The notes: generated from the letters alone by a model not told the origin. DNA of 39,105 nt from Candidatus Hydrogenedens sp. (GCA_049968235.1 JBMFRC010000028.1:1-39105); one strand, 5' to 3'; shown: positions 1-34,013, numbered from the stretch's first letter. A program made the numbers and translations.

Positions 1-858
1 ACTGTAGAGGTAGGAACATTAGTGAATCTTTGGGTATCCACAGGACCATGTCCTGAAGGCGAAGGCACTCCAGAAGGTACCCCCGAAGGTGTAGTTGAAG
101 GCACTCCAGAAGGCACGCCGGAAGGTACCCCCGAAGGTGTAGTTGAAGGAACGCCAGAAGGGACGCCGGAAGGCACCCCCGAAGGTGTAGTCGAAGGCGA
201 AGGTGAAGGCACAGTAGAGTATGCTATTGTTCCTTATGTAATAGGAGAAACATATGCATCTGCAAATTCACAGATTACATCTGCAGGTTTAACACTCGGA
301 AATGTTATAGAAGTATGCAGTAATACTTATCCTCTGGGAACGGTAATTGCTCAAGACCCGAGTGGTGGAAATACAGCGGAATTAGGTAGCCCTGTAGATT
401 TGGTCGTAGCATGTGGTCCTTGCGTGACCATTCCTGATATAGTAGGTGAACAACTTACAGATGCATTATCTACACTGATAGGCTATGGGCTATCCATAGG
501 AGATATTATTTCAGTGTGTGATAATACAGCTCCGATAGGGTCTGTATTGTCTCAAGATCCAACACCTGTAGAGAACACATGCACATTAGATACAACTGTT
601 GATTTGTATGTAGTTTGTGGGCCATGTATGCAGATAAGTTTCCCGTATGTAGTAGGAAATACAGAAGGATTAGCAATAAGTATTTTAACTGGGGGTGGAT
701 ATAGTGTAAATGATGTAATCTATGTATGTGATAATAATGTGCCGGCAGGATATGTGATAGACCAATATCCGCCATCCGATTTAAATACGCCACCGTTAGT
801 CAATACATGTAACCTTGATGTAGACCTGCTAATTTCAACGGGTCCATGTAAGAAGTAA
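1..858 (+). CDS. C-terminal portion of a secreted/cell-surface protein: Glu/Pro/Gly-rich (TPEG)n linker followed by three ~65-aa Cys-containing PASTA-like repeats; 5' end lies outside the window
   Basis: Frame 1 is open from nt 1 (no in-frame stop before the listed GTG at 22; the first codons encode ...TVEVGTLVNLWVSTGPC, i.e. the tail of a preceding repeat). Three repeats of pattern 'P.IVGe.y..A...L...GL..G.I..VC.N..P.G.V..QdP.......VDL.V.CGPC' resemble PASTA domains (PBP/STK-associated) but carry 4 conserved Cys each. Stop TAA 856-858. Confidence 0.6.
   Translation, partial: TVEVGTLVNLWVSTGPCPEGEGTPEGTPEGVVEGTPEGTPEGTPEGVVEGTPEGTPEGTPEGVVEGEGEGTVEYAIVPYVIGETYASANSQITSAGLTLGNVIEVCSNTYPLGTVIAQDPSGGNTAELGSPVDLVVACGPCVTIPDIVGEQLTDALSTLIGYGLSIGDIISVCDNTAPIGSVLSQDPTPVENTCTLDTTVDLYVVCGPCMQISFPYVVGNTEGLAISILTGGGYSVNDVIYVCDNNVPAGYVIDQYPPSDLNTPPLVNTCNLDVDLLISTGPCKK
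52..213 (+). repeat. In-frame tandem repeat array built from 12-nt units (acnccngaaggn = TPEG, gtagtngaaggn = VVEG), organised as 36/48-nt higher-order repeats; encodes EGEG(TPEG)2VVEG(TPEG)3VVEG(TPEG)3VVEGEGEG
   Basis: Direct reading: near-identical 12-nt units repeated 11 times with synonymous wobble variation (ggt/ggc, cca/ccg/ccc). Confidence 0.85.
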
Positions 859-6851: not shown

Positions 6852-8579
6852 TTGAATGTGAGAATAGCTAAAAAACGATTACCCGAGATGCTTCTCGATT
6901 TAGGAGTTATTAACAAAGAAAAATTAAATGAATGTATAAAAATTCAACAGCAGACAGGTAAAAATCTTCAAGATATATTACTTGAAAAGAAGTATATATC
7001 AGAGGAAGAACTGGTGGAAACACTCAGCGAACAACTTCAAATTCCTCATATCCGTGTATCAAATTATGCAATCCCCAAAGAAGTACTTGCTGAAGTTCCC
7101 GAAGGACTTGCAAAACAATATCAAGTATTACCTATCTCTATAACAGGTGATATTTTAACACTTGCCATGGCAAATCCATTAAATATCCTTGCTTTAGATG
7201 ATATTCGAATGATAACAGGTAAGGAAATTGAGCCTGTGATTGCTATGCCCTCAGAACTTCGTGATGTGATAGAGAAAAACTATAGTGGTGATAGGGCATC
7301 GGAGATATATGCTTCTTTATTAGCAGAACATTCGCAACAAGATGAAGTTGAAGAATTTAAGACTTCATCCGAAGAAGTTGAGGATGTAAGTAAAATTGAA
7401 TCCGTAGAAGAAGATGAACCTGTAAAAAAAATGGCGCGTCTGATTGTTCTGGATGCTCTAGAAAGAGGAGCGTCAGACATACATATTGAGCCATTTGAAA
7501 AAATTATTCGCATTCGCTATCGTGTAGACGGTGCCCTCGAGGAAGCAAAATCACCTCCTAAGTCTATGCAATCAAATCTTATTGCTCGCTTTAAAATTTT
7601 ATCGGGTTGTAGAATTGATGAACATCGTCTCCCACAAGATGGTCGTTTCCGCATAAAATTTCGAGGTAGAGAGATAGATTTCCGTGTAGCATTTCTTCCT
7701 TGTAAATATGGCGAAAAGATAGTATTGCGTGTACTTGATAAGAGCAATTTGGTGTTGAATCTTGAAGATATGGGTTTTGAGCCTCAGCCTCTGGAAGCAT
7801 TATACCATGCGTTGAAATTACCCCATGGCATGATACTTTTAACGGGACCAACAGGAAGTGGTAAAACCACAACACTATACAGTTGCTTAACCCGCCTGAA
7901 TACAATAGAAACAAATATAGTAACTGTAGAAGACCCTATCGAGTATGAATTGTTTGGAATTAATCAGGTGCAGGTGCAATCCCGTATTGGATTTACATTT
8001 GCAGAAGCATTACGCCAAATTTTGCGTCAGGACCCTAATATTATAATGGTCGGGGAAATCCGTGATGGAGAGACAGCAGATATAGCAGTGAAAGCAGCAT
8101 TGACCGGGCACCTTGTGTTAAGCACATTACACACAAACGACGCCGCAGGTGTATTTCCTCGATTAATAGATATGGGTATAGAGCCATTCCTTGTCCAATC
8201 CTCTGTGGCTCTCGCAGCAGCACAACGATTATTAAAACGAGTTTGTAAAGAATGTAAAGAAAATATATCTGTAGATAGAAATGTGTTAGAACGTATTCAA
8301 TTTCATGGATTCCCCCACATTCCTAATCCTCAATTTGTCCGGGGCAGAGGTTGTCCAAAATGTAAGGACTCGGGATATAAAGGACGGATTGCCTGTCTGG
8401 AAGCCATGTTAAATTGGCCTGAATTGCATCCACTGGTTTTGAACCGTGCATCAGGTTATGAAATTAAGAAACAAGCAATTGCATGTGGAATGAAAACACT
8501 GCGACAAAATGCACTTGCCCTTGCTGCACGAAGTTTTACAACGATTGAACAGGTTCTTGAGCATACTATTGCTGATTAA
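6852..8579 (+). CDS. Type II secretion / type IV pilus assembly ATPase of the GspE/PilB/MshE family, with N-terminal MshEN-type domain
   Basis: TTG start with RBS aggag 6846-6850. N-term 'RLPEMLLDLGVINKEKLNECIKIQ' + 'LQDILLEKKYISEEELVETLSEQ' (MshEN-like tandem motifs) and 'IPHIRVSNYAIPKEVLAEVPEGLAKQYQVLPI'; Walker A 'LLTGPTGSGKTTTLYSCL'; Asp/His boxes 'IIMVGEIRDGETADIAVKAALTGHLVLSTLHTND'; tetracysteine Zn motif 'CKECKE...GRGCPKCKDSGYKGR'. Confidence 0.9.
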   Translation: MNVRIAKKRLPEMLLDLGVINKEKLNECIKIQQQTGKNLQDILLEKKYISEEELVETLSEQLQIPHIRVSNYAIPKEVLAEVPEGLAKQYQVLPISITGDILTLAMANPLNILALDDIRMITGKEIEPVIAMPSELRDVIEKNYSGDRASEIYASLLAEHSQQDEVEEFKTSSEEVEDVSKIESVEEDEPVKKMARLIVLDALERGASDIHIEPFEKIIRIRYRVDGALEEAKSPPKSMQSNLIARFKILSGCRIDEHRLPQDGRFRIKFRGREIDFRVAFLPCKYGEKIVLRVLDKSNLVLNLEDMGFEPQPLEALYHALKLPHGMILLTGPTGSGKTTTLYSCLTRLNTIETNIVTVEDPIEYELFGINQVQVQSRIGFTFAEALRQILRQDPNIIMVGEIRDGETADIAVKAALTGHLVLSTLHTNDAAGVFPRLIDMGIEPFLVQSSVALAAAQRLLKRVCKECKENISVDRNVLERIQFHGFPHIPNPQFVRGRGCPKCKDSGYKGRIACLEAMLNWPELHPLVLNRASGYEIKKQAIACGMKTLRQNALALAARSFTTIEQVLEHTIAD

Positions 8580-20005: not shown

Positions 20006-20032
20006 TTCCAATCTAACAAACTCTAAATTCAG

Positions 20033-20062
20033 TCCCCTTGATAATTTTCAAGGGGATTTTTT
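20033..20062 (+). terminator. Rho-independent terminator after the oxidoreductase gene
   Basis: tccccttga (20033-20041) / tcaagggga (20048-20056), 9-bp GC-rich stem, 6-nt loop, then tttttt 20057-20062. Confidence 0.8.
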
Positions 20063-20108: not shown

Positions 20109-20137
20109 TTGACAAAGTGGATTTTAAGTGCTATTAT
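20109..20137 (+). promoter_or_regulatory. Consensus sigma70 promoter of the dcw cluster (Pmra): TTGACA-N17-TATTAT
   Basis: ttgaca 20109-20114, 17-nt spacer aagtggattttaagtgc, tattat 20132-20137; about 45 nt upstream of the mraZ start. Confidence 0.7.
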
Positions 20138-20183: not shown

Positions 20184-20657
20184 TTGATAATTTATCAATC
20201 AGAATATCATGTTACTCTGGATGATAAGAACAGAATATTAGTTCCTTCATCCCTAAAATCTATTATGTCCGATAATAACCATACAGTCTGGTATCTGACT
20301 CGCGGGTTTGAAAATAATCTTTTATTATTCCCCTCGCAGATTTGGAAAGAAATAACTGATAAATTAGAGCAATTGCCCACATTAAATCCGAAAGTACAAA
20401 TTCTTCGGCGCCGTTTTATCGGTGGTTCTGTTCAGGTTAGACCCGACGGGCAATATCGCATAACATTGCCAGCACCATTTCGGAACTGGGCAGAGATTAT
20501 GGATAATGCTGTGATAGCAGGCTGTGGTATGTATCTTGAAATATGGAATGAAAAGTTATGGGACAATTTCTTTAAAAACACTGATATTCAAACAGATATG
20601 AAAATTTTTATGGAGGAATTATTTCCACTAACGAATATAAATCAAAACCTATCATAA
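20184..20657 (+). CDS. mraZ: Transcriptional regulator MraZ
   Basis: TTG start, RBS ggag 20173-20176. Two tandem MraZ/SpoVT-AbrB repeats, 'YHVTLDDKNRILVPSSLK' and 'YRITLPAPFRNWAEI' (DxxxR motif in each half); first gene of the dcw cluster. Confidence 0.85.
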   Translation: MIIYQSEYHVTLDDKNRILVPSSLKSIMSDNNHTVWYLTRGFENNLLLFPSQIWKEITDKLEQLPTLNPKVQILRRRFIGGSVQVRPDGQYRITLPAPFRNWAEIMDNAVIAGCGMYLEIWNEKLWDNFFKNTDIQTDMKIFMEELFPLTNINQNLS

Positions 20658-20666
20658 TAGGAGCAA

Positions 20667-21017
20667 GTGGCTATGGACATGGAAAAACTTAATTATGGGC
20701 ATGTAATCCTCTTCAGAATTTCTGGCAGTCTTGATGAGGAAAATGTATGTAATTTGCGACTTGCCATCGCTGATTACATCAAAGGCAGAAAAAGTTGTGT
20801 GGTCTTGAATCTACAAGATGTAGAGATGATGGACCAGGTTTCCGCGGGATATTTGTTAGAATGTCTGCAAATGGCGAGGAGAAAAGGGGGAGACCTAAAA
20901 TTGGTCAAACCGAGCACCTTCATCGAACAACTATTCCGTTTTTTGGGTATATGGCATTATTTTGAAATATATACAACCGAAACAAGTGCCGTTAACGCAT
21001 TCAAACTAGCCGCATAA
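20667..21017 (+). CDS. STAS-domain anti-sigma-factor antagonist (SpoIIAA/RsbV-like)
   Basis: 116 aa; 'HVILFRISGSLDEENVCNLRLAIADYI...CVVLNLQDVEMMDQVSAGYLLECLQMARRKGGDLKLV' matches the STAS fold and the phosphorylatable-Ser region. RBS aggag 20650-20655. Inserted between mraZ and rsmH. Confidence 0.7.
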   Translation: MAMDMEKLNYGHVILFRISGSLDEENVCNLRLAIADYIKGRKSCVVLNLQDVEMMDQVSAGYLLECLQMARRKGGDLKLVKPSTFIEQLFRFLGIWHYFEIYTTETSAVNAFKLAA

Positions 21018-21024
21018 AAGAAAT

Positions 21025-21066
21025 AACTTTTCCAGTAAACAAATTTGCTGGAAAAGTTTTAATTTA
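21025..21066 (+). terminator. Intra-operon hairpin (possible attenuator / partial terminator) between the STAS gene and rsmH
   Basis: 11-bp stem aacttttccag (21025-21035) / ctggaaaagtt (21048-21058), 12-nt loop with internal palindrome caaatttg, followed by ttaatttatt. AT-rich stem, so probably weak. Confidence 0.45.
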
Positions 21067-21081
21067 TTATGTCAATAATTT

Positions 21082-22050
21082 ATGACCAATGAAAAACATC
21101 ATATTCCTGTAATGGCAAATGAGGTAATAAACCTCTTTCAAGAGAGAGAGAAGGGTATTTTTGTTGATGCAACAATAGGTGCTGGTGGACATACTTCTTA
21201 TATTCTCGAATATCTCTCCCCCCGTATGGTTGTGGGGATAGATAGGGACCCCAAAGCCATACAGATATGTTCAAAAAAATTTGAGAAAGAAAAACGAGTA
21301 AAAATATATCACGCAAATTACGCCGATATGGATAAAGTAATAAACATATTAGGTATCCAGGAGGTAGATGGAATTTTAATTGATGCAGGACTTTCCAGTT
21401 TTGCTTTAGATGATGAAGAACGTGGATTTTCTTTTCAGAAAGACGGGCCTCTGGATATGCGTATGAATACAGATGAGAAAGAAACTTTAGGAGATTTCTT
21501 AGACCGGACGGATGAACATACGCTCGCAAAAATTCTAAAAGAATACGGGGATGTTGTAAAGCCTTATTCTATTGCAAAAAAAATTATTATGCGTAGAAGG
21601 GAAGGAAAAATTAGAAAAGTTTCGGATATAGTACAAACGGTATTAGAAGATTTTCATTATGTTAATCATATTCCAGATGAAGTTCGTCAGGTATTTCAAG
21701 CATTAAGAATTGCCGTTAATAATGAATTATTTTTTTTAAGAAAAGGTCTATGGGCAGGATTGAAAATATTGGCAATACATGGACGATTTATCGTAATTAG
21801 TTTTCATTCAGGTGAAGACAGAATTGTCAAATCTATGTTTCGTTTCGTATCGCAACCATTACGGATTTTATCTCCAGAAGGTATTTTAAGAGAACAAATA
21901 TCTCCCATAGCGAGGAATTTAACACCGAAACCCGTCGCTCCTTCATCTGAGGAGATAAAAATAAATTCCAGAGCAAAAAGTGCAAGACTAAGAGCCATTG
22001 AAAAAATTTCAGATACATATATTCAACATTATATTTCAAAAGGGGTATAA
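21082..22050 (+). CDS. rsmH: 16S rRNA (cytosine1402-N4)-methyltransferase RsmH (MraW)
   Basis: 'HIPVMANEVINLF...GIFVDATIGAGGHTSYILE...GIDRDPKAI...DGILIDAGLSSFALDD' are RsmH SAM-MTase motifs. Confidence 0.9.
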   Translation: MTNEKHHIPVMANEVINLFQEREKGIFVDATIGAGGHTSYILEYLSPRMVVGIDRDPKAIQICSKKFEKEKRVKIYHANYADMDKVINILGIQEVDGILIDAGLSSFALDDEERGFSFQKDGPLDMRMNTDEKETLGDFLDRTDEHTLAKILKEYGDVVKPYSIAKKIIMRRREGKIRKVSDIVQTVLEDFHYVNHIPDEVRQVFQALRIAVNNELFFLRKGLWAGLKILAIHGRFIVISFHSGEDRIVKSMFRFVSQPLRILSPEGILREQISPIARNLTPKPVAPSSEEIKINSRAKSARLRAIEKISDTYIQHYISKGV

Positions 22051-22054
22051 AAGA

Positions 22055-22954
22055 ATGAGTAAAAAAGTTATACAAATACGAAAAGATGCCCTGTTCATAA
22101 GTTCCTTATATCTAATCCCGGTGTTTATTGTATCTGGAGTACTGGCTGTGGATTTATATATTAATGTCCAACGCTGGCATTATGATTATTTAACTATACA
22201 GGCAAAAAAGAATATTACACGATGGGTTAAAGATAAAAGTGAATTTAAAAAGCATGATAAATTAAAGGGAATAAGTAAGGATAGTAAAGGTGAACCTTCA
22301 ATAGAGCCTATAGATAATAAAGAAACAAAAGATATAAGGTCCATTTCTTTTTTTTCAAAGATACTCGACAAAATAGTTTTCTTTAGAGAAACCGAAGAGG
22401 AAAATCAAACTCAAGAAGAAGGACAAAATGTGCAAAAAGTAGAAGACATTAACTATGGACTCCAGGCGATGATGGCTGAAATAGAGATGTTGAAAGTTGA
22501 AAAGGTAAGATTAGAAAACTTGCAAAATTTGACAAGATTGGGATTTCAATTAGGTTTGGTGACTCCAAAACCAGAACAGGTAGTACGAATTACATATAGT
22601 AAAGATGAACGGGATAAATTAATACAAACTGCATCATCAGATATGTTATTTCCCCAAAAGCCTAAAAAGATAAATACCTCAGAAACGAAATATGCAGAAG
22701 GTGAAACAGATATTAAACAAAAAATAAAGAGAATAAAGGACTTGTTGAACAAACCTGCAATTTCTATTAAGGAATGGGTTATCAATAAAATTACAACTCC
22801 CGTAATTGCAGAATCAAAAAATAGTGTTAACGAGGAAACAAATGAAAGCAATGTGCCCAAAATGAATAAAGATGAAAAGAATTTACATCCTGATAAAAAT
22901 AATGATGATATAGATATCGATTCATTAACAGAGTTCTTGATGGAGAAACTATAG
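22055..22954 (+). CDS. FtsL-like bitopic cell-division protein with unusually long Lys/Glu-rich coiled-coil C-terminal extension
   Basis: Position between rsmH and ftsI; ATG 22055 (MSKKVIQIRKD) with RBS aaagggg about 22040. Single TM 'ALFISSLYLIPVFIVSGVLAVDLYI' followed by coiled-coil 'LQAMMAEIEMLKVEKVRLENLQNL'. 299 aa versus ~100-120 for typical FtsL. The listed ORF start 21998 overlaps the rsmH 3' end. Confidence 0.55.
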   Translation: MSKKVIQIRKDALFISSLYLIPVFIVSGVLAVDLYINVQRWHYDYLTIQAKKNITRWVKDKSEFKKHDKLKGISKDSKGEPSIEPIDNKETKDIRSISFFSKILDKIVFFRETEEENQTQEEGQNVQKVEDINYGLQAMMAEIEMLKVEKVRLENLQNLTRLGFQLGLVTPKPEQVVRITYSKDERDKLIQTASSDMLFPQKPKKINTSETKYAEGETDIKQKIKRIKDLLNKPAISIKEWVINKITTPVIAESKNSVNEETNESNVPKMNKDEKNLHPDKNNDDIDIDSLTEFLMEKL

Positions 22955-22965
22955 GGGATAATACA

Positions 22966-25359
22966 GTGAGCGGTATCTTACAAAAATCGCCTTTTGATAT
23001 AGAAGAAAAAATACCTCAGACAATCGACATAAAACGATTGGCTCTTTTGCAATTATTTTTGTTCCTTTTACTATGTGTAATTGTTATTCGTCTTGTTATC
23101 GTGTCTTTTTTCCCAAAGGGAATTGTTAAAGAATATGCTGATAAACATGATGGAATAATAAAACGCGAAAATCCCCGGGGAATGATTTATGATAGGTCAC
23201 AAAATCCTTTAGCCTATTCTGTTCTAATGCCTTCACTGTTTTGTTCTCCTGCGGATGTTTTATATCCGGATGAAATGGCGGAAAAAGTAGCCTCAAAATT
23301 AGGGTTGGATGTTGACTTTGTAAAAAAGAGGATGACACTTACAAATGATGAAGGAAAGAAATTACAGTATGTATTACTTCGAAGAGGAATTGATAATATT
23401 CCAAAAGCAGAATTAGAGAATTTTGTTTCAGAAATAAATAAATGGCAGAAAGAAGAATTAAAAAAATCCACAACACCCCAACGAAATATAAAACAGTCTT
23501 ACAAAGAGATATTGTTATCCTATTTTAACCGAAATCTGGATAAATCGAAGGATAATAGTAAACCCAAAGGAAATCCATTATTTATAAATTATGAATGGTT
23601 TCGCCAATATCCGCATCATGAAGTTGGAGGAAACATTATTGGCTTTGTAGCCATGAATGATGAAAATCGAGTAGGAGGTATGGATGGAATAGAAAAAGAT
23701 TGGGACAAATATCTTTATGCAGACCCTACGGAAATTTCCGGACGAAAGAACAGTTCGGGAAATATTCTTCCCTCCACTTCTCAAGAAAAAAGAGGACAGT
23801 ATCCGGGAGCCAATGTTCATCTTACAATTGATTTAGAGATACAACATGTTCTGGAAAAGGAATTAGACCGAAGGATTGAAGAATGTAATGCCGTAGATGG
23901 GATGGGTGTTATAATGGACCCATTTACAGGAGCCATTCTTGCTATGGCCTCTCGTCCCTCCTATGACCCCAATGACCCCGAAACAAGACAAGGTGATGCT
24001 CTCAAGAATAAAGTACTATATGAACTTATAGAGCCGGGTTCTACTTTTAAGATTGTTACTGCTAGTGCAGGAATTGAGAAAGGATATATTGATGAAAATA
24101 CGATTATTGATTGTGAAGGTGGCAGGATTCGAGTTGCCAGCAAAATTATCAAAGATGTCCATGGTATGGGGGCTGTCCCTTTCTGGAAATGTTTTGAACA
24201 ATCCAGCAATGTAGCTATGGTAAAAGTGGGAAGAACTGTGGGATTAGAAACTTTACGCGAATATGTAAAGAAGTTTGGATTTGGAACAAAAACACTCAAA
24301 GATATTTCTACAGAAAGAATAGGTGCTATTTCTACAAATAAGGCAGAAACAACTTTGAGTTCTATGTCCATTGGTTATGCTGTTATGGTTACACCCATTC
24401 AATTAGCGAGGGCTTATGCTGTAATTGCCAATGGTGGGTATCTGGTGGAACCCTATATTGTGGAAAAAGTAACTCTTCCTGAAGGTGATGTCTTATATGA
24501 ACATAAAGAGGAAGAACAGCCACAGGTAATAAAATCAGAAACTGCAGAAATTATGAGAACCTTATGTCATCAAGTTGTATTGAAAGGAACAGGGAAATCA
24601 GCAAATATTCCGGGGTATAAAGTAGGAGGAAAAACGGGAACTGCTCATTTAGCAAAAACTCAAAAACAAGGCGGTGGATATGACCCAGATAAAATTATCT
24701 CCATTTTTGCAGGGTTTGCCCCTGTTTCACATCCAAAAGTGGTTGCCGTAATTGTGATTCGCTATCCCATGTCAAAAATTCGGTATGGTGGATATGTTTG
24801 TGGACCCGTATTCAGAAATGTCGTTTATTATACACTAACCCGGCTAAAAGTTCCTCCAGACCCTACGATTTCCAATGATTTACTACAACAAGAAGGATTT
24901 ATTGCGGAAGAGAGTATAGAAAAGGACAATGACTCATTATATTTTGAGGATATTGACCCTCTATGGGTTCATGAATTGGTAAATGAAGAGTCGTCAGAGC
25001 TAAATAAAACGGTGATTACGGAAAACAAATCAGGCAAAATGAATAATAAGGAGAAGGAAAATAAGAAAGAAGAGGAAAAGTTAAAGAAACCTGTGTTTAA
25101 TCCTATGTCTGAGAAAGAAATTATTAAAATTGCAAAACAAACGGAAACTTTACCTGACCTTTCAGGATTAACAAAAATGAAAGCATTGAGTATCTTAAAT
25201 TCATTAAAAATAGATTACGAATGCCGTGGCTACGGAAGAGTCGTATCCCAGTTCCCTGTTGCAGGAACACCCTTAAAGGAAGTAGATATATGTTTATTAG
25301 ATTTTTCTGAAGATTTCAATTCGGGATTAGAGATGGTTTTGCCAAGAAAAGAGGATTAA
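22966..25359 (+). CDS. ftsI: Class B penicillin-binding protein / peptidoglycan D,D-transpeptidase FtsI with C-terminal PASTA domain and Lys/Glu-rich tail
   Basis: GTG start. N-terminal TM; SxxK 'GSTFKIV', SxN 'QSSNVAM', KTGT 'GGKTGTAH'; C-terminal 'LPDLSGLTKMKALSILNSLKIDYECRGYGRVVSQFPVAGTPLKEVDICLLDF' is a PASTA domain; 'NNKEKENKKEEEKLKK' low-complexity region. Confidence 0.9.
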   Translation: MSGILQKSPFDIEEKIPQTIDIKRLALLQLFLFLLLCVIVIRLVIVSFFPKGIVKEYADKHDGIIKRENPRGMIYDRSQNPLAYSVLMPSLFCSPADVLYPDEMAEKVASKLGLDVDFVKKRMTLTNDEGKKLQYVLLRRGIDNIPKAELENFVSEINKWQKEELKKSTTPQRNIKQSYKEILLSYFNRNLDKSKDNSKPKGNPLFINYEWFRQYPHHEVGGNIIGFVAMNDENRVGGMDGIEKDWDKYLYADPTEISGRKNSSGNILPSTSQEKRGQYPGANVHLTIDLEIQHVLEKELDRRIEECNAVDGMGVIMDPFTGAILAMASRPSYDPNDPETRQGDALKNKVLYELIEPGSTFKIVTASAGIEKGYIDENTIIDCEGGRIRVASKIIKDVHGMGAVPFWKCFEQSSNVAMVKVGRTVGLETLREYVKKFGFGTKTLKDISTERIGAISTNKAETTLSSMSIGYAVMVTPIQLARAYAVIANGGYLVEPYIVEKVTLPEGDVLYEHKEEEQPQVIKSETAEIMRTLCHQVVLKGTGKSANIPGYKVGGKTGTAHLAKTQKQGGGYDPDKIISIFAGFAPVSHPKVVAVIVIRYPMSKIRYGGYVCGPVFRNVVYYTLTRLKVPPDPTISNDLLQQEGFIAEESIEKDNDSLYFEDIDPLWVHELVNEESSELNKTVITENKSGKMNNKEKENKKEEEKLKKPVFNPMSEKEIIKIAKQTETLPDLSGLTKMKALSILNSLKIDYECRGYGRVVSQFPVAGTPLKEVDICLLDFSEDFNSGLEMVLPRKED

Positions 25360-28255: not shown

Positions 28256-29737
28256 ATGCTTTATTACATTGCTATTTTACTACTTCCTTATATAGACATA
28301 ATAAATGTTCTAACTTATCACACAGTTAGAGCAGGGGGAGCCGTTTTTACATCCTTTTTTATTACACTTATGATAGGTCCCTTTGTTATACATAAATTAC
28401 GGGAAATGAAAATTGGTCAATATATCAAAAAGGAACATGTCGCAGACCTACACCAACTTCATAAAGGAAAAGCGGGAACACCTACAATGGGAGGTATTCT
28501 AATACTTGTCTCAACTTTTGTTTCCCTTTTAGTATGGGGTCGTCTTACAAATCGTTTTTTATGGCTTACAATGCTTGTTTTTTGTGCATTAGGAACATTG
28601 GGTTTCTCGGATGATTATATTAAATTAAAACGGAAACATAATGATGGATTACGAGCAAAAGATAAATTAATAGGACAAATCCTCATAGGGCTTATCTTCG
28701 GAATTTATTTGTATTTTAATCCTATAACTCCCGGAGCGGTTTATTTAACTCTATCTGATGTAAAAGACTGGTCAAATTTAAAAAATCAATTGATTCAAGG
28801 GCTAAATGAAAATGGAGATGCTCAACTTGTTTATATTTGTTCTCAAATTCCATCGTCATTGAAAGAACATTTATTACAATTAGATACAAAAAAAGAATTA
28901 GAAGTAGAAGAACAATTATTATTTATTCGAAGTCTTAATCAGGTAATTGATAGAGATGAATGGCAATACAATTCTTTATGGGACGGGAAAAAAAACCGAA
29001 CCGAAATTCAAATGTATTTAAATAGCAAGGATAAAAACAAACCTTTTCAAAAACAGCGATTGGGACGATTATTAATCGAGGATACTTTCAAAGATTCCTT
29101 TTATATCTCTACTTCTTCCTTACATACGAAGGTAGGCGTTCCCGGATTTAAAAATCTTTTCATTCCCTTAGGCATATTTTATATATTTTTTGTTGCTCTA
29201 ATTGTGGTGAGCGTATCAAATGCTGTAAATCTAACGGATGGATTGGATGGGCTTGCTATAGGTTCTTCTATTATTTCTGTTATGGCGTATGCCGGTATCG
29301 CATATATAGTAAGCCGTGCAGATTGGAGCCGGTATCTTTTTCTTACTTATGTGCCAGAGGCAAGTGAATTGTTTGTGTTTGGTTCCGCTTTATTAGGTTC
29401 AGGTCTGGGTTTCCTTTGGTATAATAGTTATCCCGCAGAAGTTTTTATGGGAGATACAGGGTCGTTATCTCTGGGAGGAGCCATAGCAGTTCTTGCGGTT
29501 CTAACAAAACAAGAATTATTACTCCCGTTAGTGGCAGGTATTTTTGTGCTTGAAGCAGGAAGTGTGTTATTGCAGGTGGCTTCGTTCAAACTTACGGGTA
29601 AAAGAATATTTCGAATGGCTCCCTTGCATCACCATTTTGAGTTATTAGGTTGGACAGAGACAAAAGTTACACTTCGTTTCTGGATAGTTGCTTTGTTATT
29701 TGCACTTTTGAGTTTAGGAACGCTTAAACTAAGATGA
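28256..29737 (+). CDS. mraY: Phospho-N-acetylmuramoyl-pentapeptide transferase MraY carrying a ~130-aa hydrophilic insertion
   Basis: 'KGKAGTPTMGGILIL', 'GFSDDYIKL', 'NAVNLTDGLDGLA', 'FMGDTGSLSLGGA', 'FRMAPLHHHFEL' are all MraY signatures. 493 aa versus ~360; extra residues ~160-295 (nt ~28720-29160) fall between the TM4 and TM5 equivalents. Confidence 0.9.
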   Translation: MLYYIAILLLPYIDIINVLTYHTVRAGGAVFTSFFITLMIGPFVIHKLREMKIGQYIKKEHVADLHQLHKGKAGTPTMGGILILVSTFVSLLVWGRLTNRFLWLTMLVFCALGTLGFSDDYIKLKRKHNDGLRAKDKLIGQILIGLIFGIYLYFNPITPGAVYLTLSDVKDWSNLKNQLIQGLNENGDAQLVYICSQIPSSLKEHLLQLDTKKELEVEEQLLFIRSLNQVIDRDEWQYNSLWDGKKNRTEIQMYLNSKDKNKPFQKQRLGRLLIEDTFKDSFYISTSSLHTKVGVPGFKNLFIPLGIFYIFFVALIVVSVSNAVNLTDGLDGLAIGSSIISVMAYAGIAYIVSRADWSRYLFLTYVPEASELFVFGSALLGSGLGFLWYNSYPAEVFMGDTGSLSLGGAIAVLAVLTKQELLLPLVAGIFVLEAGSVLLQVASFKLTGKRIFRMAPLHHHFELLGWTETKVTLRFWIVALLFALLSLGTLKLR

Positions 29738-31122: not shown

Positions 31123-32259
31123 ATGTATAGGGATTCATCCGCAATAATTATTATTACTGTTATTTTAACCATACTGGGTCTTATGGTCGGGTATAGCGTT
31201 GAAGGTTTGCGAACAGATTTACAATCTTTCTTAATAAAACAATTCATTCTTTTATTTATTGGCGGTGGTTGTTTCATTGCTCTACTCTTTTATGATTACC
31301 ACAAACTTTTTAAGCCTGGAAACTTCTGGCTTTTGTCGCTTATTTGTATACTAGGATTAATAGCAGTTTTATTTTTTGGAGAATTAAGAAATGGAGCTAG
31401 AAGATGGTTAAATCTTTTTGGAGTTTTTTCCCTTCAACCTTCCGAATTTGCGAAGATAGCTTTTCTAATTAATATAACATGGTATTTATCTCGTTTTTAC
31501 AGCAGGTTAAAGACAATTCGTTATGGAATTGTTTTACCTATTGTGATTACATTAATTTATTGTACTCTAATTATTTTAGAGAATGACCAGGGAACTCCCA
31601 CGATTATGATGATAACAGTCCTTTGCATGATATTTGTAACAGGCATATATAGAAGATATTTATTTATAGGTACAGGTATTTCTGTAGGTGCTTTTACCTT
31701 TGCCGTAATTTCTAAACCTCATCGAATTGACCGAATTATATATACATGGTTTCCTGAATGGGACCCCTCCGGAAAAGGATGGCATATTATCCAATCCTTA
31801 GTTTCATTCTATCGTGGAAATATTTTAGGTGTGGGCATTGGTGCTGGTGAACAAAAATTAGACTATTTGCCAGAAGCACATCGAGATTTCCCATTTTCAA
31901 TTATAGGCGAAGAAATGGGAATATTAGGAACTATCCTTATTGTAATACTATTTTTATTATTGATTTATTATGGTTTTGAAATAGCCCGAAAATCCCCAGA
32001 TTTTCAAGGTTCTCTCCTTGCTATAGGGATAACATGCATGATTGGGATTCAGGGAATTGTAATGATGCTGGTAAATATCGGGATACTTCCTGTAAAAGGA
32101 ATGTGTTTACCTCTAATTAGTAGTGGTGGTTCCTCCTTTATTGCTAACATGTTTATGTTGGGCTGTCTTGTAAATATCGGTTTTCAAGAAATACGAAAAG
32201 AATCCCCTTCTTATTGGAAAGCCTTTATTTTTGCAAATCTAAATAACCCATTAAAGTAA
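31123..32259 (+). CDS. ftsW: SEDS-family peptidoglycan glycosyltransferase FtsW
   Basis: 10-TM SEDS pattern; 'LQPSEFAKIAFLI', 'DFPFSIIGEEMGILG', 'GMCLPLISSGGSS' motifs; follows murD as in canonical dcw clusters. Confidence 0.85.
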   Translation: MYRDSSAIIIITVILTILGLMVGYSVEGLRTDLQSFLIKQFILLFIGGGCFIALLFYDYHKLFKPGNFWLLSLICILGLIAVLFFGELRNGARRWLNLFGVFSLQPSEFAKIAFLINITWYLSRFYSRLKTIRYGIVLPIVITLIYCTLIILENDQGTPTIMMITVLCMIFVTGIYRRYLFIGTGISVGAFTFAVISKPHRIDRIIYTWFPEWDPSGKGWHIIQSLVSFYRGNILGVGIGAGEQKLDYLPEAHRDFPFSIIGEEMGILGTILIVILFLLLIYYGFEIARKSPDFQGSLLAIGITCMIGIQGIVMMLVNIGILPVKGMCLPLISSGGSSFIANMFMLGCLVNIGFQEIRKESPSYWKAFIFANLNNPLK

Positions 32260-32276
32260 GATATTAAATATATATT

Positions 32277-33302
32277 ATGCTTACTGAGGAATTAAATTAT
32301 TTCTTACCGGAAGAAAGAATCGCCCAGCATCCGGTTAAACCTCGTGATTCTGCACGGTTATTGATAGTAAATAGGAAGGATACCTCTATAAAAGAGGATG
32401 TATTCCGTAATTTATTCCAGTATTTAAATAGTGGAGATGTTATTGTATTAAACGATACAAAAGTAATCTATGCAAGGTTATTGGGGCATAAAGAAAAAAC
32501 AGGAGGAAAGGTTGAAGTTTTTCTGTTAAAACAGATAAATGAACAGGATTGGATTGCTCTTGTAAAACCTTCAGCAAAAATTCCTGATGCAACAAGTGTT
32601 ATACTTCATGATAAAGTAAAAGTTGAAATTCGTGATTTTTTAGGTGAAGGAAAGAGGATTGTGCATTTCCCACAAGGGAATATTTTATCGGTTATTTACA
32701 AAATAGGATTAGTGCCACTTCCTCCGTATATTCGCAGAGAATCACCAGAACCTGATGACCGAATTCGTTATCAAACTATTTATGCAAAAAAATCAGGTTC
32801 TGTCGCTGCGCCTACTGCTGGTTTGCACTATACAAATCGTGTATTCAAAAAACTAAAAGAAAAAGGGATTGATATATGTTATATCACTCTTCATGTGGGT
32901 TATGGGACATTCAAGCCCATAACTACAGAAAAGGTAGAACAACATGTCGTAGATGCAGAGGATTTCTCTATTAGTGAAGATACTGTAACTTTGTTGAATA
33001 AGAAAAAAAAAGAAGGGAAAAAAATAATCGCGGTAGGAACAACGGTTACAAGAGTACTGGAAACTCAGTTTATTGATGGAAGATTTCAAGCAGGTTTTGG
33101 CTCAACAACAAAGTTTATATACCCTCCTTATAATTTTCAGGCGGTTGATATTCTACAAACAAATTTTCATCTTCCCCGGTCATCATTATTAGCTCTTGTT
33201 TTTGCTTTTGCAGGAAAGGAATTGATTATGAAGGCATACAATTATGCTATAGAGAATAAATTTCGTTTCTATTCTTATGGCGATACAATGTTAATCTTAT
33301 AG
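32277..33302 (+). CDS. queA: S-adenosylmethionine:tRNA ribosyltransferase-isomerase QueA
   Basis: 'LNYFLPEERIAQHPVKPRDSARLLIV', 'VAAPTAGLHYT', 'VGTTVTRVLE' are QueA signatures. Confidence 0.9.
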   Translation: MLTEELNYFLPEERIAQHPVKPRDSARLLIVNRKDTSIKEDVFRNLFQYLNSGDVIVLNDTKVIYARLLGHKEKTGGKVEVFLLKQINEQDWIALVKPSAKIPDATSVILHDKVKVEIRDFLGEGKRIVHFPQGNILSVIYKIGLVPLPPYIRRESPEPDDRIRYQTIYAKKSGSVAAPTAGLHYTNRVFKKLKEKGIDICYITLHVGYGTFKPITTEKVEQHVVDAEDFSISEDTVTLLNKKKKEGKKIIAVGTTVTRVLETQFIDGRFQAGFGSTTKFIYPPYNFQAVDILQTNFHLPRSSLLALVFAFAGKELIMKAYNYAIENKFRFYSYGDTMLIL

Positions 33303-33317
33303 ATTGAGGTAAAATTT

Positions 33318-34013
33318 ATGTTGCAAATATCGAAATATTTATATTTTGATTCAGCACACAGGAATGAATATAAGGGAGGAAAATATTCTCAACTACATGG
33401 ACATACCTTTTTTGCTGAAATAGTTGCAAAAGGCTCTTTACATCCTGATTATGGATGGATAGTCGATTTTAGCGAAATAAAGAAAAATATTGTTCCGATT
33501 ATTGATATATTAGACCATTCTTATTTAAATGAAATTGCTGGATTGGAGAAAGATGCAACTATCCCTGCAATAGAAAATTGGTTTCGGGAACAACTCAAAG
33601 AAAAACCATGGTGGTTTAAGGACATTCGTATCGGAATTATAGGTGATCTTGATTTTAAGCCATGTAGACTACCACCCGACAGAGACCTACCTGAATTGTG
33701 GAGTTTTTCTTTTGAGTCCGCTCAATCATTACCTCAGTTGCCTAGCTCTCATCCCTGTCATAATTTACATGGTCACAGTTATTTCGTAAAGGTAGGTTCA
33801 AAAGATATGGATAATCTCCCAAGTATATTGAAGAAAATATACGAGTTATTAGACCATCGTTGGTTGAATGAAATTCCAGGGTTAGAAAAAGCAACAAGTG
33901 AAATTTTAACCTATTGGATTATAGAAAAACTATACGAATATAAATATCCTCCCACTGTTGTTATTGTTCAGGAAACCCCCTCTTCTTATTGTATATGGAG
34001 AAATGACATATAA
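33318..34013 (+). CDS. queD: Two-domain 6-pyruvoyl-tetrahydropterin synthase-fold protein (QueD-like, tandem T-fold)
   Basis: Half 1: 'FDSAHRNEYKGGKYSQLHGHTF...GWIVDFSEIKK...LDHSYLNEIAGLE' (HGH present, catalytic Cys absent). Half 2: 'SHPCHNLHGHSYFV...LDHRWLNEIPGLE' (C-x3-HGH present). Typical QueD is ~120 aa, this is 231 aa. RBS gaggt 33306-33310. Confidence 0.7.
   Translation: MLQISKYLYFDSAHRNEYKGGKYSQLHGHTFFAEIVAKGSLHPDYGWIVDFSEIKKNIVPIIDILDHSYLNEIAGLEKDATIPAIENWFREQLKEKPWWFKDIRIGIIGDLDFKPCRLPPDRDLPELWSFSFESAQSLPQLPSSHPCHNLHGHSYFVKVGSKDMDNLPSILKKIYELLDHRWLNEIPGLEKATSEILTYWIIEKLYEYKYPPTVVIVQETPSSYCIWRNDI

What the first reader, a model, noticed from the sequence alone, without database searches (positions are those of the whole stretch)
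20667..21017. STAS-domain anti-sigma-factor antagonist inserted between mraZ and rsmH in the dcw cluster
The mraZ-rsmH(mraW)-ftsL-ftsI order is among the most conserved gene orders in bacteria. Here a 116-aa SpoIIAA/RsbV-like STAS protein is wedged between mraZ and rsmH. It is separated from mraZ by 9 nt and followed by an AT-rich hairpin (21025-21066) before rsmH. A partner-switching module embedded in the division/cell-wall operon suggests phosphorylation-based control of division or envelope synthesis, for example by sequestering an anti-sigma kinase or another STAS-binding partner.
Basis: partly seen in the sequence, partly recalled or inferred. Interest (0 to 1): 0.6.

Follow-up and report, generated by a model that had tools for sequence, protein, structure and literature searches.

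The report
Extra STAS gene in division operon
A small STAS-type protein (the anti-sigma-antagonist type) sits in the cell-division gene cluster in every Hydrogenedentota lineage sampled, directly after the cluster's repressor gene mraZ, but it has lost the serine that normally switches such proteins, so it probably acts through its amount rather than through phosphorylation.

Summary
A STAS-domain gene lies between mraZ and rsmH, most likely 20673-21017 (114 aa, ATG start). It matches Pfam STAS at 59.6 bits, and the AlphaFold2 model (pLDDT 94) superposes on SpoIIAA with TM 0.87.

It is not a local accident. All 24 dcw loci retrieved from Candidatus Hydrogenedens and more distant Hydrogenedentes carry it, with STAS identity down to about 30%. 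Often it overlaps mraZ. In 50 of 53 loci from other phyla mraZ ends right at rsmH, and none of the 53 has a STAS gene there.

The phosphorylation reading is not supported. The residue opposite SpoIIAA Ser58 is Gln here. It is never Ser or Thr in 84 family clusters, against Ser in 92 of 101 other STAS proteins. No RsbW-like kinase or PP2C phosphatase is nearby.

The family has an almost invariant C-terminal Ala-Ala (FKLAA here), which resembles a ClpXP degron. One member is phage-borne.

Best reading: a phosphorylation-independent binding protein whose effect depends on its amount, made together with MraZ from a promoter carrying MraZ boxes. The partner is unknown (MraZ or a distant RsbW-like protein). 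No paper found describes it. It is a new variant of a known kind, of moderate interest.

The parts
20031..20058 (+). Terminator-like hairpin plus T-run after the upstream GFO/IDH/MocA oxidoreductase gene. It marks the 5' boundary of the dcw transcription unit.
   Evidence: 11 pairs, followed by TTTTATAAGA.
20109..20137 (+). Sigma-70-type promoter TTGACA-17-TATTAT (11 of 12 matches, with TG before the second hexamer) upstream of mraZ.
   Evidence: TTGACA is kept in the AT-rich relatives and L077, and in variant form (TTGACT, TTGTGT) in L078/L079.
20116..20131 (+). Two MraZ-box-like repeats (AGTGG at 20116-20120, AGTGC at 20127-20131, 11-nt period) inside the promoter spacer.
   Evidence: L077 has four clean TAGTGGTA repeats, and L078/L079 have GTGG/GTGT arrays. 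The published MraZ operator is GTG(G/T) boxes separated by 6 nt (PMC12957436). Binding was not tested.
20184..20657 (+). mraZ (157 aa, TTG start).
   Evidence: PF02381 at 79.6 bits; TIGR00242 at 82.5 bits, below its equivalog cut-off of 98.35. The DxxxR motifs of both halves are kept.
20659..20663 (+). Shine-Dalgarno AGGAG for the STAS gene, 9 nt before the ATG at 20673.
   Evidence: TAGGAG-N9-ATG is kept in L008 and L005, with GGAG 8-9 nt before the ATG in L001 and L064.
20673..21017 (+). STAS-domain gene (114 aa). The phospho-acceptor position is Gln55. The C-terminus is FKLAA.
21025..21068 (+). AT-rich hairpin (21025-21058) plus a U-rich tail. It could be a terminator, an attenuator or an RNA-stability element between the STAS gene and rsmH.
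   Evidence: z = -6.1. A hairpin of different sequence is present in L064 and L008, weaker ones in L001, L005, L078 and L079, and none in L062. Function is inferred.
21069..21092 (+). Conserved motif ATGTCAAKAATTTATGA. It forms a 7-codon out-of-frame mini-ORF overlapping the rsmH start. Unexplained.
21082..22050 (+). rsmH (mraW), 16S rRNA m4C1402 methyltransferase.
   Evidence: PF01795 at 298.9 bits; TIGR00006 at 280.3 bits against a cut-off of 154.3.
21998..22954 (+). ORF in the FtsL position (318 aa, no family match).
   Evidence: A no-Pfam gene occupies this position in all related loci.
22966..25359 (+). ftsI (PBP dimerisation, transpeptidase and PASTA domains). The rest of the dcw cluster continues to ftsW at 32259.

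Best explanation
[quoted passage not shown] It encodes a single-domain, SpoIIAA-fold STAS protein that has lost the phospho-acceptor serine.

It most likely works as a phosphorylation-independent binding protein whose effect depends on its concentration.
1. It is transcribed with mraZ from a sigma-70 promoter that carries MraZ boxes. It is translated in step with MraZ, from a strong SD 15 nt after mraZ here and from overlapping ORFs in GC-rich relatives.
2. It is probably turned over through its conserved ssrA-like C-terminal Ala-Ala tail.
3. It acts by sequestering or modifying a partner protein.

My single most likely partner is MraZ itself, making mraZ-STAS a two-gene regulatory module (about 0.3). 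Next is a SpoIIAB/RsbW-like protein encoded elsewhere (about 0.25).

Shown: STAS fold, gene position, conservation in every Hydrogenedentes dcw locus retrieved, loss of the Ser, absence of neighbouring kinase or phosphatase, purifying selection, conserved C-terminal AA.

Inferred: co-transcription, MraZ-box repression, proteolytic turnover, binding by sequestration, identity of the partner.
For: Family and fold:
- Pfam and NCBIfam STAS matches are above their cut-offs.
- The AF2 model has pLDDT 94.1. The best Foldseek hits are SpoIIAA 1thn_B/1th8_B (TM 0.87, rmsd 1.5) and RsbV 6m36.

Fixed position:
- The order mraZ-STAS-rsmH-x-ftsI-murE is found in loci carrying P0005, P0008, P0009 and P0010 (46-95% identity) and in L008, Ca. 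Hydrogenedens terephthalaticus.
- The same order is found in L070-L076.
- It is also found in GC-rich lineages at about 30-35% identity with different upstream neighbours: L077, L078, L079 and L081.
- Several source names read Candidatus Hydrogenedentes or Hydrogenedens.
- mraZ and the STAS gene overlap by 11-23 nt in L077-L079 and are 1 nt apart in L081.

Controls: 53 rsmH loci from other phyla have no STAS upstream. In 50 of them MraZ ends at rsmH.

Family size: an exhaustive profile search of 1.84 billion representatives found only 2 clusters below 1e-30. The next tier is the 114-117 aa '...AA' proteins.

Lost switch: the phospho-site column has 0 of 84 Ser/Thr, against 92 of 101 Ser in controls.

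C-terminus: AA in 78 and VA in 5 of 84 family clusters, against 1 of 101 controls. The last model block has pLDDT 68, so the tail looks flexible. FKLAA fits the experimentally derived ClpXP consensus [L/F/Y/W]-[L/A/R]-L-A-A (PMC10862746).

Other support:
- RsfA is a precedent for a STAS antagonist regulated without phosphorylation (PMC7693655).
- dN/dS is about 0.05.
- The promoter and GTG(G/T) repeat arrays are present upstream of mraZ in all lineages.
Against: - No partner has been identified, and no binding, turnover or transcription data exist.
- STAS proteins have no known AbrB/MraZ-type partner.
- The loop that docks into RsbW-type kinases is remodelled (DSSG to DQVS or SYMG), which weakens the RsbW-like option too.
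- Most GC-rich members have Ser at the preceding column (64 of 84), so a shifted phospho-site in that subgroup is not excluded.
- In E. coli a terminal Ala-Ala is necessary but not sufficient for ClpXP recognition. Most family tails (F-R-E-A-A) have Glu where Leu is preferred.
- L062 has a 187-nt gap between mraZ and the STAS gene, so tight coupling is not universal.
- The STAS gene's GC3 (0.41) is higher than its neighbours' (0.23-0.32). This is unexplained.
Confidence: 0.55

Rival explanations
1. Canonical partner-switching. The STAS protein would be phosphorylated and dephosphorylated by an RsbW/SpoIIAB-type kinase and a PP2C phosphatase encoded elsewhere, and would control a sigma factor that acts on division or envelope genes.
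For: The fold and best structural matches are SpoIIAA and RsbV in complex with their kinases. TIGR00377 is just above its cut-off. A Ser is present near the site (S57 here, S54 in 64 of 84 family members). Kinases and phosphatases could lie outside the 39-kb window.
Against: The acceptor column never holds Ser or Thr in 84 clusters, against 91% Ser in controls. S57 and S54 are each absent from whole subclades. No kinase or phosphatase is found in any of about 12 distinct neighbourhoods, whereas the nearest canonical STAS (P0238) has both next door. The spore_II_AA equivalog scores 44.3 against a cut-off of 114.75.
Confidence: 0.08
2. A phosphorylation-independent antagonist of a GHKL anti-sigma factor encoded elsewhere (RsfA-like). 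Its level, set by the dcw promoter, would titrate the anti-sigma factor and so couple a sigma regulon to dcw transcription.
For: All characterised single-domain STAS proteins with a known partner bind RsbW-like proteins (PMC8256260). RsfA antagonises anti-SigF and is regulated by a disulfide rather than by phosphorylation (PMC7693655). The fold match to kinase-bound SpoIIAA and RsbV has TM 0.79-0.89.
Against: There is no candidate partner in any locus. The kinase-docking loop is remodelled. The RsfA-type Cys pair is not conserved (C26 and C64 are replaced in P0009-P0011, and C35 occurs only in the GC-rich clade). This reading does not explain why the gene must sit exactly after mraZ.
Confidence: 0.25
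3. A non-regulatory STAS role: an accessory subunit of a transporter or ABC ATPase (MlaB- or SulP-like), or a nucleotide- or lipid-binding protein that is only co-expressed with the dcw genes.
For: STAS domains also serve as MlaB and SLC26/SulP modules. Foldseek lists them further down (MlaB 7ch7_E TM 0.61, SLC26 STAS 0.66-0.86).
Against: No mla or SulP genes are adjacent in any locus. Sequence and structure are closest to the anti-sigma antagonist subgroup. The phage-borne copy has no transporter context.
Confidence: 0.07
4. A decaying remnant of a former partner-switching module, with no present function.
For: Loss of the hallmark Ser and absence of partner genes could indicate decay.
Against: dN/dS is about 0.05. 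Intact ORFs of 114-117 aa occur in 84 clusters across deep divergence, with invariant G18, N46, E103 and A106, A114 in 83 of 84, and family-specific R15, E63 and R89. The SD or ORF overlap with mraZ is conserved.
Confidence: 0.02

Closest known systems
SpoIIAA / RsbV (Bacillus anti-sigma factor antagonists; Pfam PF01740, TIGR00377)
   Same: Single-domain STAS protein of about 115 aa. Same fold (TM 0.87 to 1thn_B), with sequence matches above family cut-offs.
   Different: The phospho-acceptor Ser58/Ser56 is replaced (Gln here; never Ser or Thr in the family). There is no adjacent kinase/anti-sigma, sigma or PP2C gene. The gene is embedded in the dcw operon after mraZ. It has a conserved C-terminal Ala-Ala.
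RsfA (Rv1365c / MSMEG_1786), redox-regulated anti-SigF antagonist of mycobacteria
   Same: A STAS antagonist that is regulated without serine phosphorylation (PMC7693655). This shows that a phosphorylation-independent STAS protein can still be a working regulator.
   Different: RsfA is switched by a disulfide between two Cys residues and lies near an RsbW homologue. Here no Cys pair is conserved across the family and no RsbW homologue is nearby.
Non-canonical 'output' STAS-only proteins (SypA, RbaV, BtrV)
   Same: Single-domain STAS proteins that act on targets other than a classical anti-sigma factor, some of them unknown (PMC8256260).
   Different: Those keep the conserved Ser and are controlled by a kinase/phosphatase encoded in the same locus. 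This family has neither.
[quoted passage not shown]
   Same: Same genes in the same order, with a promoter carrying GTG(G/T) repeat arrays like published MraZ operators.
   Different: One extra gene lies between mraZ and rsmH in every sampled Hydrogenedentes locus. In 50 of 53 loci from other phyla MraZ ends directly at rsmH, and none of the 53 has a STAS gene upstream.
Regulators carrying ssrA-like C-terminal Ala-Ala degrons (for example sigma-AntA of Streptomyces, and M. tuberculosis anti-sigma factors)
   Same: A small regulatory protein ending in ...AA. FKLAA fits the E. coli ClpXP consensus [LFYW][LAR]LAA (PMC10862746; PMC7142297; bioRxiv 10.1101/491043, listed).
   Different: Degradation has not been tested here. 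Most family tails are F/Y-R-E-A-A, with Glu at the position where Leu is preferred in E. coli.

Membership tests
STAS domain superfamily (PF01740 / TIGR00377 anti-sigma factor antagonist superfamily) | Profile match above the curated cut-off | tested here: met
   PF01740 scores 59.6 against 22.6, PF13466 scores 35.8 against 29.2, and TIGR00377 scores 54.3 against 53.45.
STAS domain superfamily (PF01740 / TIGR00377 anti-sigma factor antagonist superfamily) | SpoIIAA-like alpha/beta fold | tested here: met
   The AF2 model has pLDDT 94.1 and pTM 0.87. Foldseek gives TM 0.87 and rmsd 1.5 to 1thn_B. The top 28 hits are all single-domain STAS proteins.
Phospho-regulated partner-switching antagonists (SpoIIAA/RsbV type) | Conserved phosphorylatable Ser/Thr at the N-terminus of helix 2 (SpoIIAA Ser58) | tested here: not met
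   Gln55 aligns with Ser58 in ungapped alignments. The column has 0 of 84 Ser/Thr in the family and 92 of 101 Ser in controls.
Phospho-regulated partner-switching antagonists (SpoIIAA/RsbV type) | Co-located GHKL serine kinase/anti-sigma factor (PF13581 HATPase_c_2) | tested here: not met
   None is found among the ORFs of at least 100 aa in the 39-kb window or in the 5-6 kb flanks of related loci. The rest of the genome could not be searched.
Phospho-regulated partner-switching antagonists (SpoIIAA/RsbV type) | Cognate PP2C phosphatase (PF07228 SpoIIE/RsbU) | tested here: not met
   None is found in the window or in the related dcw loci (same calls). The canonical comparator L080 has four.
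Phospho-regulated partner-switching antagonists (SpoIIAA/RsbV type) | Equivalog-level match to SpoIIAA (TIGR02886) | tested here: not met
   Score 44.3 bits against a cut-off of 114.75.
Phospho-regulated partner-switching antagonists (SpoIIAA/RsbV type) | Binds and antagonises an anti-sigma factor | not testable with these tools
   This needs binding assays or multimer modelling with candidate partners from a complete genome.
RsfA-type redox-switched STAS antagonists | Conserved pair of redox-responsive cysteines | tested here: not met
   C26 and C64 are invariant only among the closest relatives. C26 is Leu in P0009-P0011 and C64 is Leu in P0009. C35 is present in 68 of 84 members, the GC-rich clade only, without a fixed second Cys.
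ssrA-like C-terminal ClpXP degron | Terminal Ala-Ala preceded by hydrophobic or basic residues, consensus [LFYW][LAR]LAA | tested here: met
   The tail is FKLAA. The family ends in AA in 78 of 84 clusters and VA in 5 of 84, against 1 of 101 controls. The consensus is from PMC10862746.
ssrA-like C-terminal ClpXP degron | Accessible, unstructured tail and actual ClpXP-dependent degradation | tested here: inconclusive
   The last block of the model has pLDDT 68 against 96-97 for the neighbouring blocks, but DSSP still assigns helix up to residue 113. Degradation cannot be tested here.
MlaB / SLC26-SulP STAS modules | Fusion to, or operon with, a transporter or ABC ATPase (MlaFEDB, SulP) | tested here: not met
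   The protein is stand-alone with no transporter genes adjacent. The structural match to MlaB is only TM 0.58-0.61.
Canonical dcw cluster 5' end | mraZ immediately followed by rsmH | tested here: not met
   The STAS gene intervenes here and in all 23 related Hydrogenedentes dcw loci. In 50 of 53 loci from other phyla MraZ ends directly at rsmH.

The most novel reading that the evidence does not exclude
The STAS protein is a dedicated protein partner of MraZ, acting as an anti-repressor or co-repressor. It would be made in fixed ratio with MraZ and removed by proteolysis through its Ala-Ala tail. This would be the first protein-level input into the MraZ switch of the dcw operon and a new kind of STAS partner (an AbrB/SpoVT-fold DNA-binding protein). 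The phage-borne homologue would then be a tool for hijacking host division control.
Probability: 0.25. Interest if true: 0.75.

Novelty: new variant of a known kind. Interest (0 to 1): 0.55.

Why it matters
mraZ-rsmH is one of the most conserved gene pairs in bacteria, yet what signal controls MraZ, and why rsmH travels with it, is still unclear. Here every sampled lineage of a candidate phylum has kept a third small regulatory-type protein between them for a very long time. That protein has lost the usual phospho-switch and gained a degron-like tail.

If it binds MraZ or couples dcw expression to a sigma or anti-sigma circuit, it offers a natural experiment on how the dcw promoter is tuned. 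It would also broaden what STAS domains are known to do. The claim is testable with recombinant proteins even though the organisms are uncultured.

If the protein turns out to be just another STAS antagonist with a remote partner, the result is a modest addition to the catalogue of non-canonical STAS proteins.

Tried and rejected
1. Redox (RsfA-like) switch: C26 and C64 looked invariant in the first 9 sequences but are not kept in P0009-P0011 or the GC-rich clade. Rejected.
2. Nucleic-acid binding through a basic surface: median pI is 5.9 (close clade) and 6.7 (GC-rich clade) against 6.0 in controls. No support.
3. Genome-collection scan with RsmH to map the insertion across the phylum: it returned only one Hydrogenedentes genome (L008) plus 53 loci from other phyla. 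These served as negative controls but did not show how deep the insertion goes.
4. Metagenome scan with a MraZ alignment: only 7 close relatives, all with the STAS gene.
The next two (P0070 and alignment A6) and a tblastn of P0070 against 50,697 phage records found nothing. The phage copy is so far a single case.
6. Rfam and tRNA/tmRNA scans of the window: nothing. The hairpin is not a known RNA family.
7. PHROGs: no hit for the window STAS protein or for P0070.
8. Literature searches for STAS with mraZ, dcw or Hydrogenedentes: no paper describes the arrangement.
9. Cluster-member look-up for organism names: none added.
10. Modelling a MraZ-STAS complex: not attempted. The structure tool takes one chain and window-only sequences, and it reports no interface measure.

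Full report
**1. The observation**

The window contains an ORF at 20667-21017 (+).
- Its product matches Pfam STAS (PF01740, E 2.9e-16, 59.6 bits against a gathering score of 22.6) and STAS_2 (PF13466).
- It also matches the NCBIfam anti-sigma-factor-antagonist superfamily model TIGR00377 (54.3 against 53.45).
- Upstream lies MraZ (20184-20657, PF02381). Downstream lie RsmH (21082-22050, PF01795/TIGR00006), an ORF without family matches in the FtsL position, then FtsI, MurE, MurF, MraY, MurD and FtsW.
- All relatives are 114 aa. The Shine-Dalgarno AGGAG (20659-20663) is 9 nt from the ATG at 20673 but only 3 nt from the GTG at 20667. The CDS is therefore most likely 20673-21017.
- The hairpin reported after the gene is real: 21025-21058, with a 15-bp stem and a U-rich tail. 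The 74-nt segment folds at -21.6 kcal/mol, z = -6.1.
- An AlphaFold2 model is confident (pLDDT 94.1). Its best matches among solved structures are SpoIIAA (1thn_B/1th8_B, TM 0.87, rmsd 1.5 A) and RsbV (6m36).

**2. Where the window comes from and how widespread the arrangement is**

RsmH is 93% identical to that of Candidatus Hydrogenedens terephthalaticus (L008).

A word-indexed search found only 8 close STAS homologues. A profile search added three at 46-56% identity, followed by a gap down to generic STAS proteins of about 33%. Every one of the closer set that I looked up lies in mraZ-STAS-rsmH-x-ftsI-murE, as do seven metagenome loci found through MraZ.

An exhaustive HMMER search of 1.84 billion representative proteins gave only two clusters below 1e-30. 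The next tier is a set of 114-117 aa proteins with full-length matches that end in ...[F/Y]-R-x-A-A. Searching with these gave 72 proteins, several named Candidatus Hydrogenedentes or Hydrogenedens by their sources.
- Four subclades of this GC-rich tier (about 53-55% GC in L077-L079, about 30-35% identical to the window protein) were looked up. All four show MraZ-STAS-RsmH-x-FtsI-MurE, with unrelated upstream neighbours.
- In those loci mraZ and the STAS ORF overlap by 11-23 nt or are 1 nt apart (L077, L078, L079, L081).

By contrast, in 50 of 53 rsmH loci from other phyla the MraZ ORF ends directly at rsmH, and none of the 53 has a STAS ORF within 3 kb upstream. These phyla include Firmicutes, Patescibacteria, Proteobacteria, Omnitrophota, Fibrobacterota and Planctomycetota.

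The insertion is therefore ancient and fixed in the sampled Hydrogenedentota, and it is not a general feature of bacteria. The gene is under strong purifying selection (dN/dS about 0.05).

**3. The phospho-switch is gone**

HMMER alignments to four SpoIIAA structures run ungapped through the switch region. In them ...NLQDVEMMDQVSAGYLLE... pairs with ...NLGQLTFMDSSGLGVILG.... This places Gln55 opposite the phospho-acceptor Ser58.
- In an 84-cluster family alignment this column is Y (56), Q (9), N (7), F (6), R (2), and M, I, L, C (1 each). It is never Ser or Thr.
- In 101 other single-domain STAS representatives from the same search it is Ser in 92.
- The 17 nearest non-dcw relatives keep the canonical Ser, 15 of them as DSSG[IM]G.
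- The preceding column is Ser in 64 members, Asp in 19 and Glu in 1, so it is not a conserved acceptor either.
- No HATPase_c_2 kinase and no SpoIIE/PP2C phosphatase is encoded among the ORFs of at least 100 aa in the 39-kb window or in any related dcw neighbourhood.
- A canonical STAS just outside the family (P0238) sits in a textbook SpoIIE-STAS-HATPase_c_2-SpoIIE array (L080).

The 'phosphorylation-based control' reading is therefore not supported. A STAS protein that binds a partner remains plausible.

**4. What the family has instead**
- Family-specific conserved residues are R15, E63, R86 and R89 (14-28% in controls).
- The C-terminus is almost invariant: AA in 78 and VA in 5 of 84 clusters, against AA in 1 of 101 controls.
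- Here the tail is A-F-K-L-A-A. It fits the ClpXP C-degron consensus [L/F/Y/W]-[L/A/R]-L-A-A derived experimentally in E. coli, where terminal Ala-Ala was necessary but not sufficient (PMC10862746).
- Small regulators controlled through such tails are known, for example sigma-AntA (PMC7142297).
- The last residues of the model have lower confidence (block mean 68).

Turnover through this tail is an inference, not a result.

**5. Regulatory setting**
- Upstream of mraZ there is a near-consensus promoter (TTGACA-17-TATTAT, 20109-20137).
- GTGG and GTGC repeats 11 nt apart lie in its spacer (20117 and 20128).
- GC-rich relatives have clearer arrays, with four TAGTGGTA repeats in L077.
- The published MraZ operator is a set of GTG(G/T) boxes separated by 6 nt (PMC12957436). 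The DNA-contacting DxxxR motifs of MraZ are kept.
- MraZ, and with it the STAS gene, is thus probably autoregulated from this promoter (inferred).
- The hairpin between the STAS gene and rsmH recurs in relatives. L064 and L008 each have a strong stem, with a different sequence in L064. L001, L005, L078 and L079 have weaker ones, and L062 has none.
- The hairpin could make mraZ-STAS a more highly expressed sub-unit. No Rfam family matches it.

**6. Mechanism**

What is shown: a SpoIIAA-fold protein, fixed after mraZ in every sampled lineage of the phylum, without the acceptor Ser, without local kinase or phosphatase, and with a conserved degron-like end.

The best-supported reading is a phosphorylation-independent binder whose activity is set by its concentration. 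Synthesis would be coupled to MraZ and removal would go through the Ala-Ala tail.

The partner is unknown.
- I rate MraZ itself about 0.3. The reasons are the invariant adjacency, the overlapping ORFs, the two-gene unit delimited by the hairpin, and the lack of any other local candidate.
- I rate a distant RsbW/SpoIIAB-like protein about 0.25. The reasons are that all characterised single-domain STAS partners are of this kind, and that RsfA shows a STAS antagonist can be regulated without phosphorylation (PMC8256260; PMC7693655).
- Canonical phospho-switching, a transporter-accessory role and a decaying remnant are unlikely, for the reasons given under the rival explanations.

**7. A phage copy**

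One divergent family member (P0070, tail ...QRAA) is encoded on a phage contig, between a Holliday-junction resolvase gene and a DNA methyltransferase gene, just upstream of the terminase genes (L082).

No further phage copies were found.

This suggests the protein can act in trans without a neighbouring mraZ, and that a phage may use it to interfere with the host circuit. It is a single observation.

**8. Novelty and score**

Four of the paper searches, those aimed at this arrangement or lineage, found no description of a STAS gene in a dcw cluster or of this feature in Hydrogenedentes.

The protein is a member of the STAS superfamily. It fails the defining tests of the phospho-regulated SpoIIAA/RsbV type. 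I file it as a new variant of a known kind.

Interest is moderate (0.55). It touches the open question of what controls MraZ, and it is testable with recombinant proteins. The mechanism is not resolved, and the organisms are known here only from metagenome-derived assemblies.

Noticed in passing
L082:5001-5348 (phage contig ERZ27297427 k119_977229): A divergent member of the dcw-STAS family (P0070, ending QRAA, no Ser at the switch) is encoded on a phage genome, between a Holliday-junction resolvase gene and a DNA methyltransferase gene and just upstream of the small and large terminase genes. It may be a host-derived gene used to interfere with host division control.
   Followed up: partly
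window 21069-21092: The motif ATGTCAAKAATTTATGA is conserved directly before the rsmH ATG in all AT-rich relatives. It forms a 7-codon out-of-frame mini-ORF (MSIIYDQ*) overlapping the rsmH start, and no Shine-Dalgarno sequence is visible for rsmH. Unexplained.
   Followed up: partly
window 4027-6771 (+): A 914-aa protein combines an MshEN domain (residues 100-186) with a DnaA-type AAA+ ATPase domain (678-835). It lies next to a T2SSE/PilB-type ATPase that also has an MshEN domain (6852-8579). This is an unusual domain combination.
   Followed up: no
window 22-858 (+): This ORF has three PASTA repeats and probably continues beyond the left end of the window. It may be the C-terminal part of a PknB-like kinase or of a PBP.
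   Followed up: no
window 21998-22954 (+): The gene in the FtsL position is 318 aa, Lys/Glu-rich, without any family match, and overlaps the end of rsmH by 53 nt. It is 284-297 aa in close relatives and 188-208 aa in GC-rich Hydrogenedentes, much longer than typical FtsL.
   Followed up: no
window 28256-29737 (+): MraY is 493 aa. The MraY signature is at residues 72-84, but the Glycos_transf_4 match covers only 295-416. This suggests an extra segment of more than 100 aa inside the enzyme.
   Followed up: no
window 31123-34013: The dcw cluster ends after ftsW and is followed by queA and a PTPS-family gene. murG, murC, ddl and ftsQAZ are not in this window.
   Followed up: no
L080:3856-12187: This is a canonical partner-switching locus. 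A STAS gene and an RsbW-like kinase gene are flanked by four GAF- or HAMP-SpoIIE phosphatase genes. It served as the comparator, and its organism is unknown.
   Followed up: partly
P0048, P0087, P0110, P0119, P0158 and others: A wider set of STAS proteins has Tyr or His in place of the phospho-Ser ([N/S]-Y-[M/L] motif) but different lengths and no AA tail.
   Followed up: no
window 20673-21017: The GC3 of the STAS gene (0.41) is higher than that of mraZ (0.32), rsmH (0.23) and ftsI (0.27). The cause is unknown.
   Followed up: no
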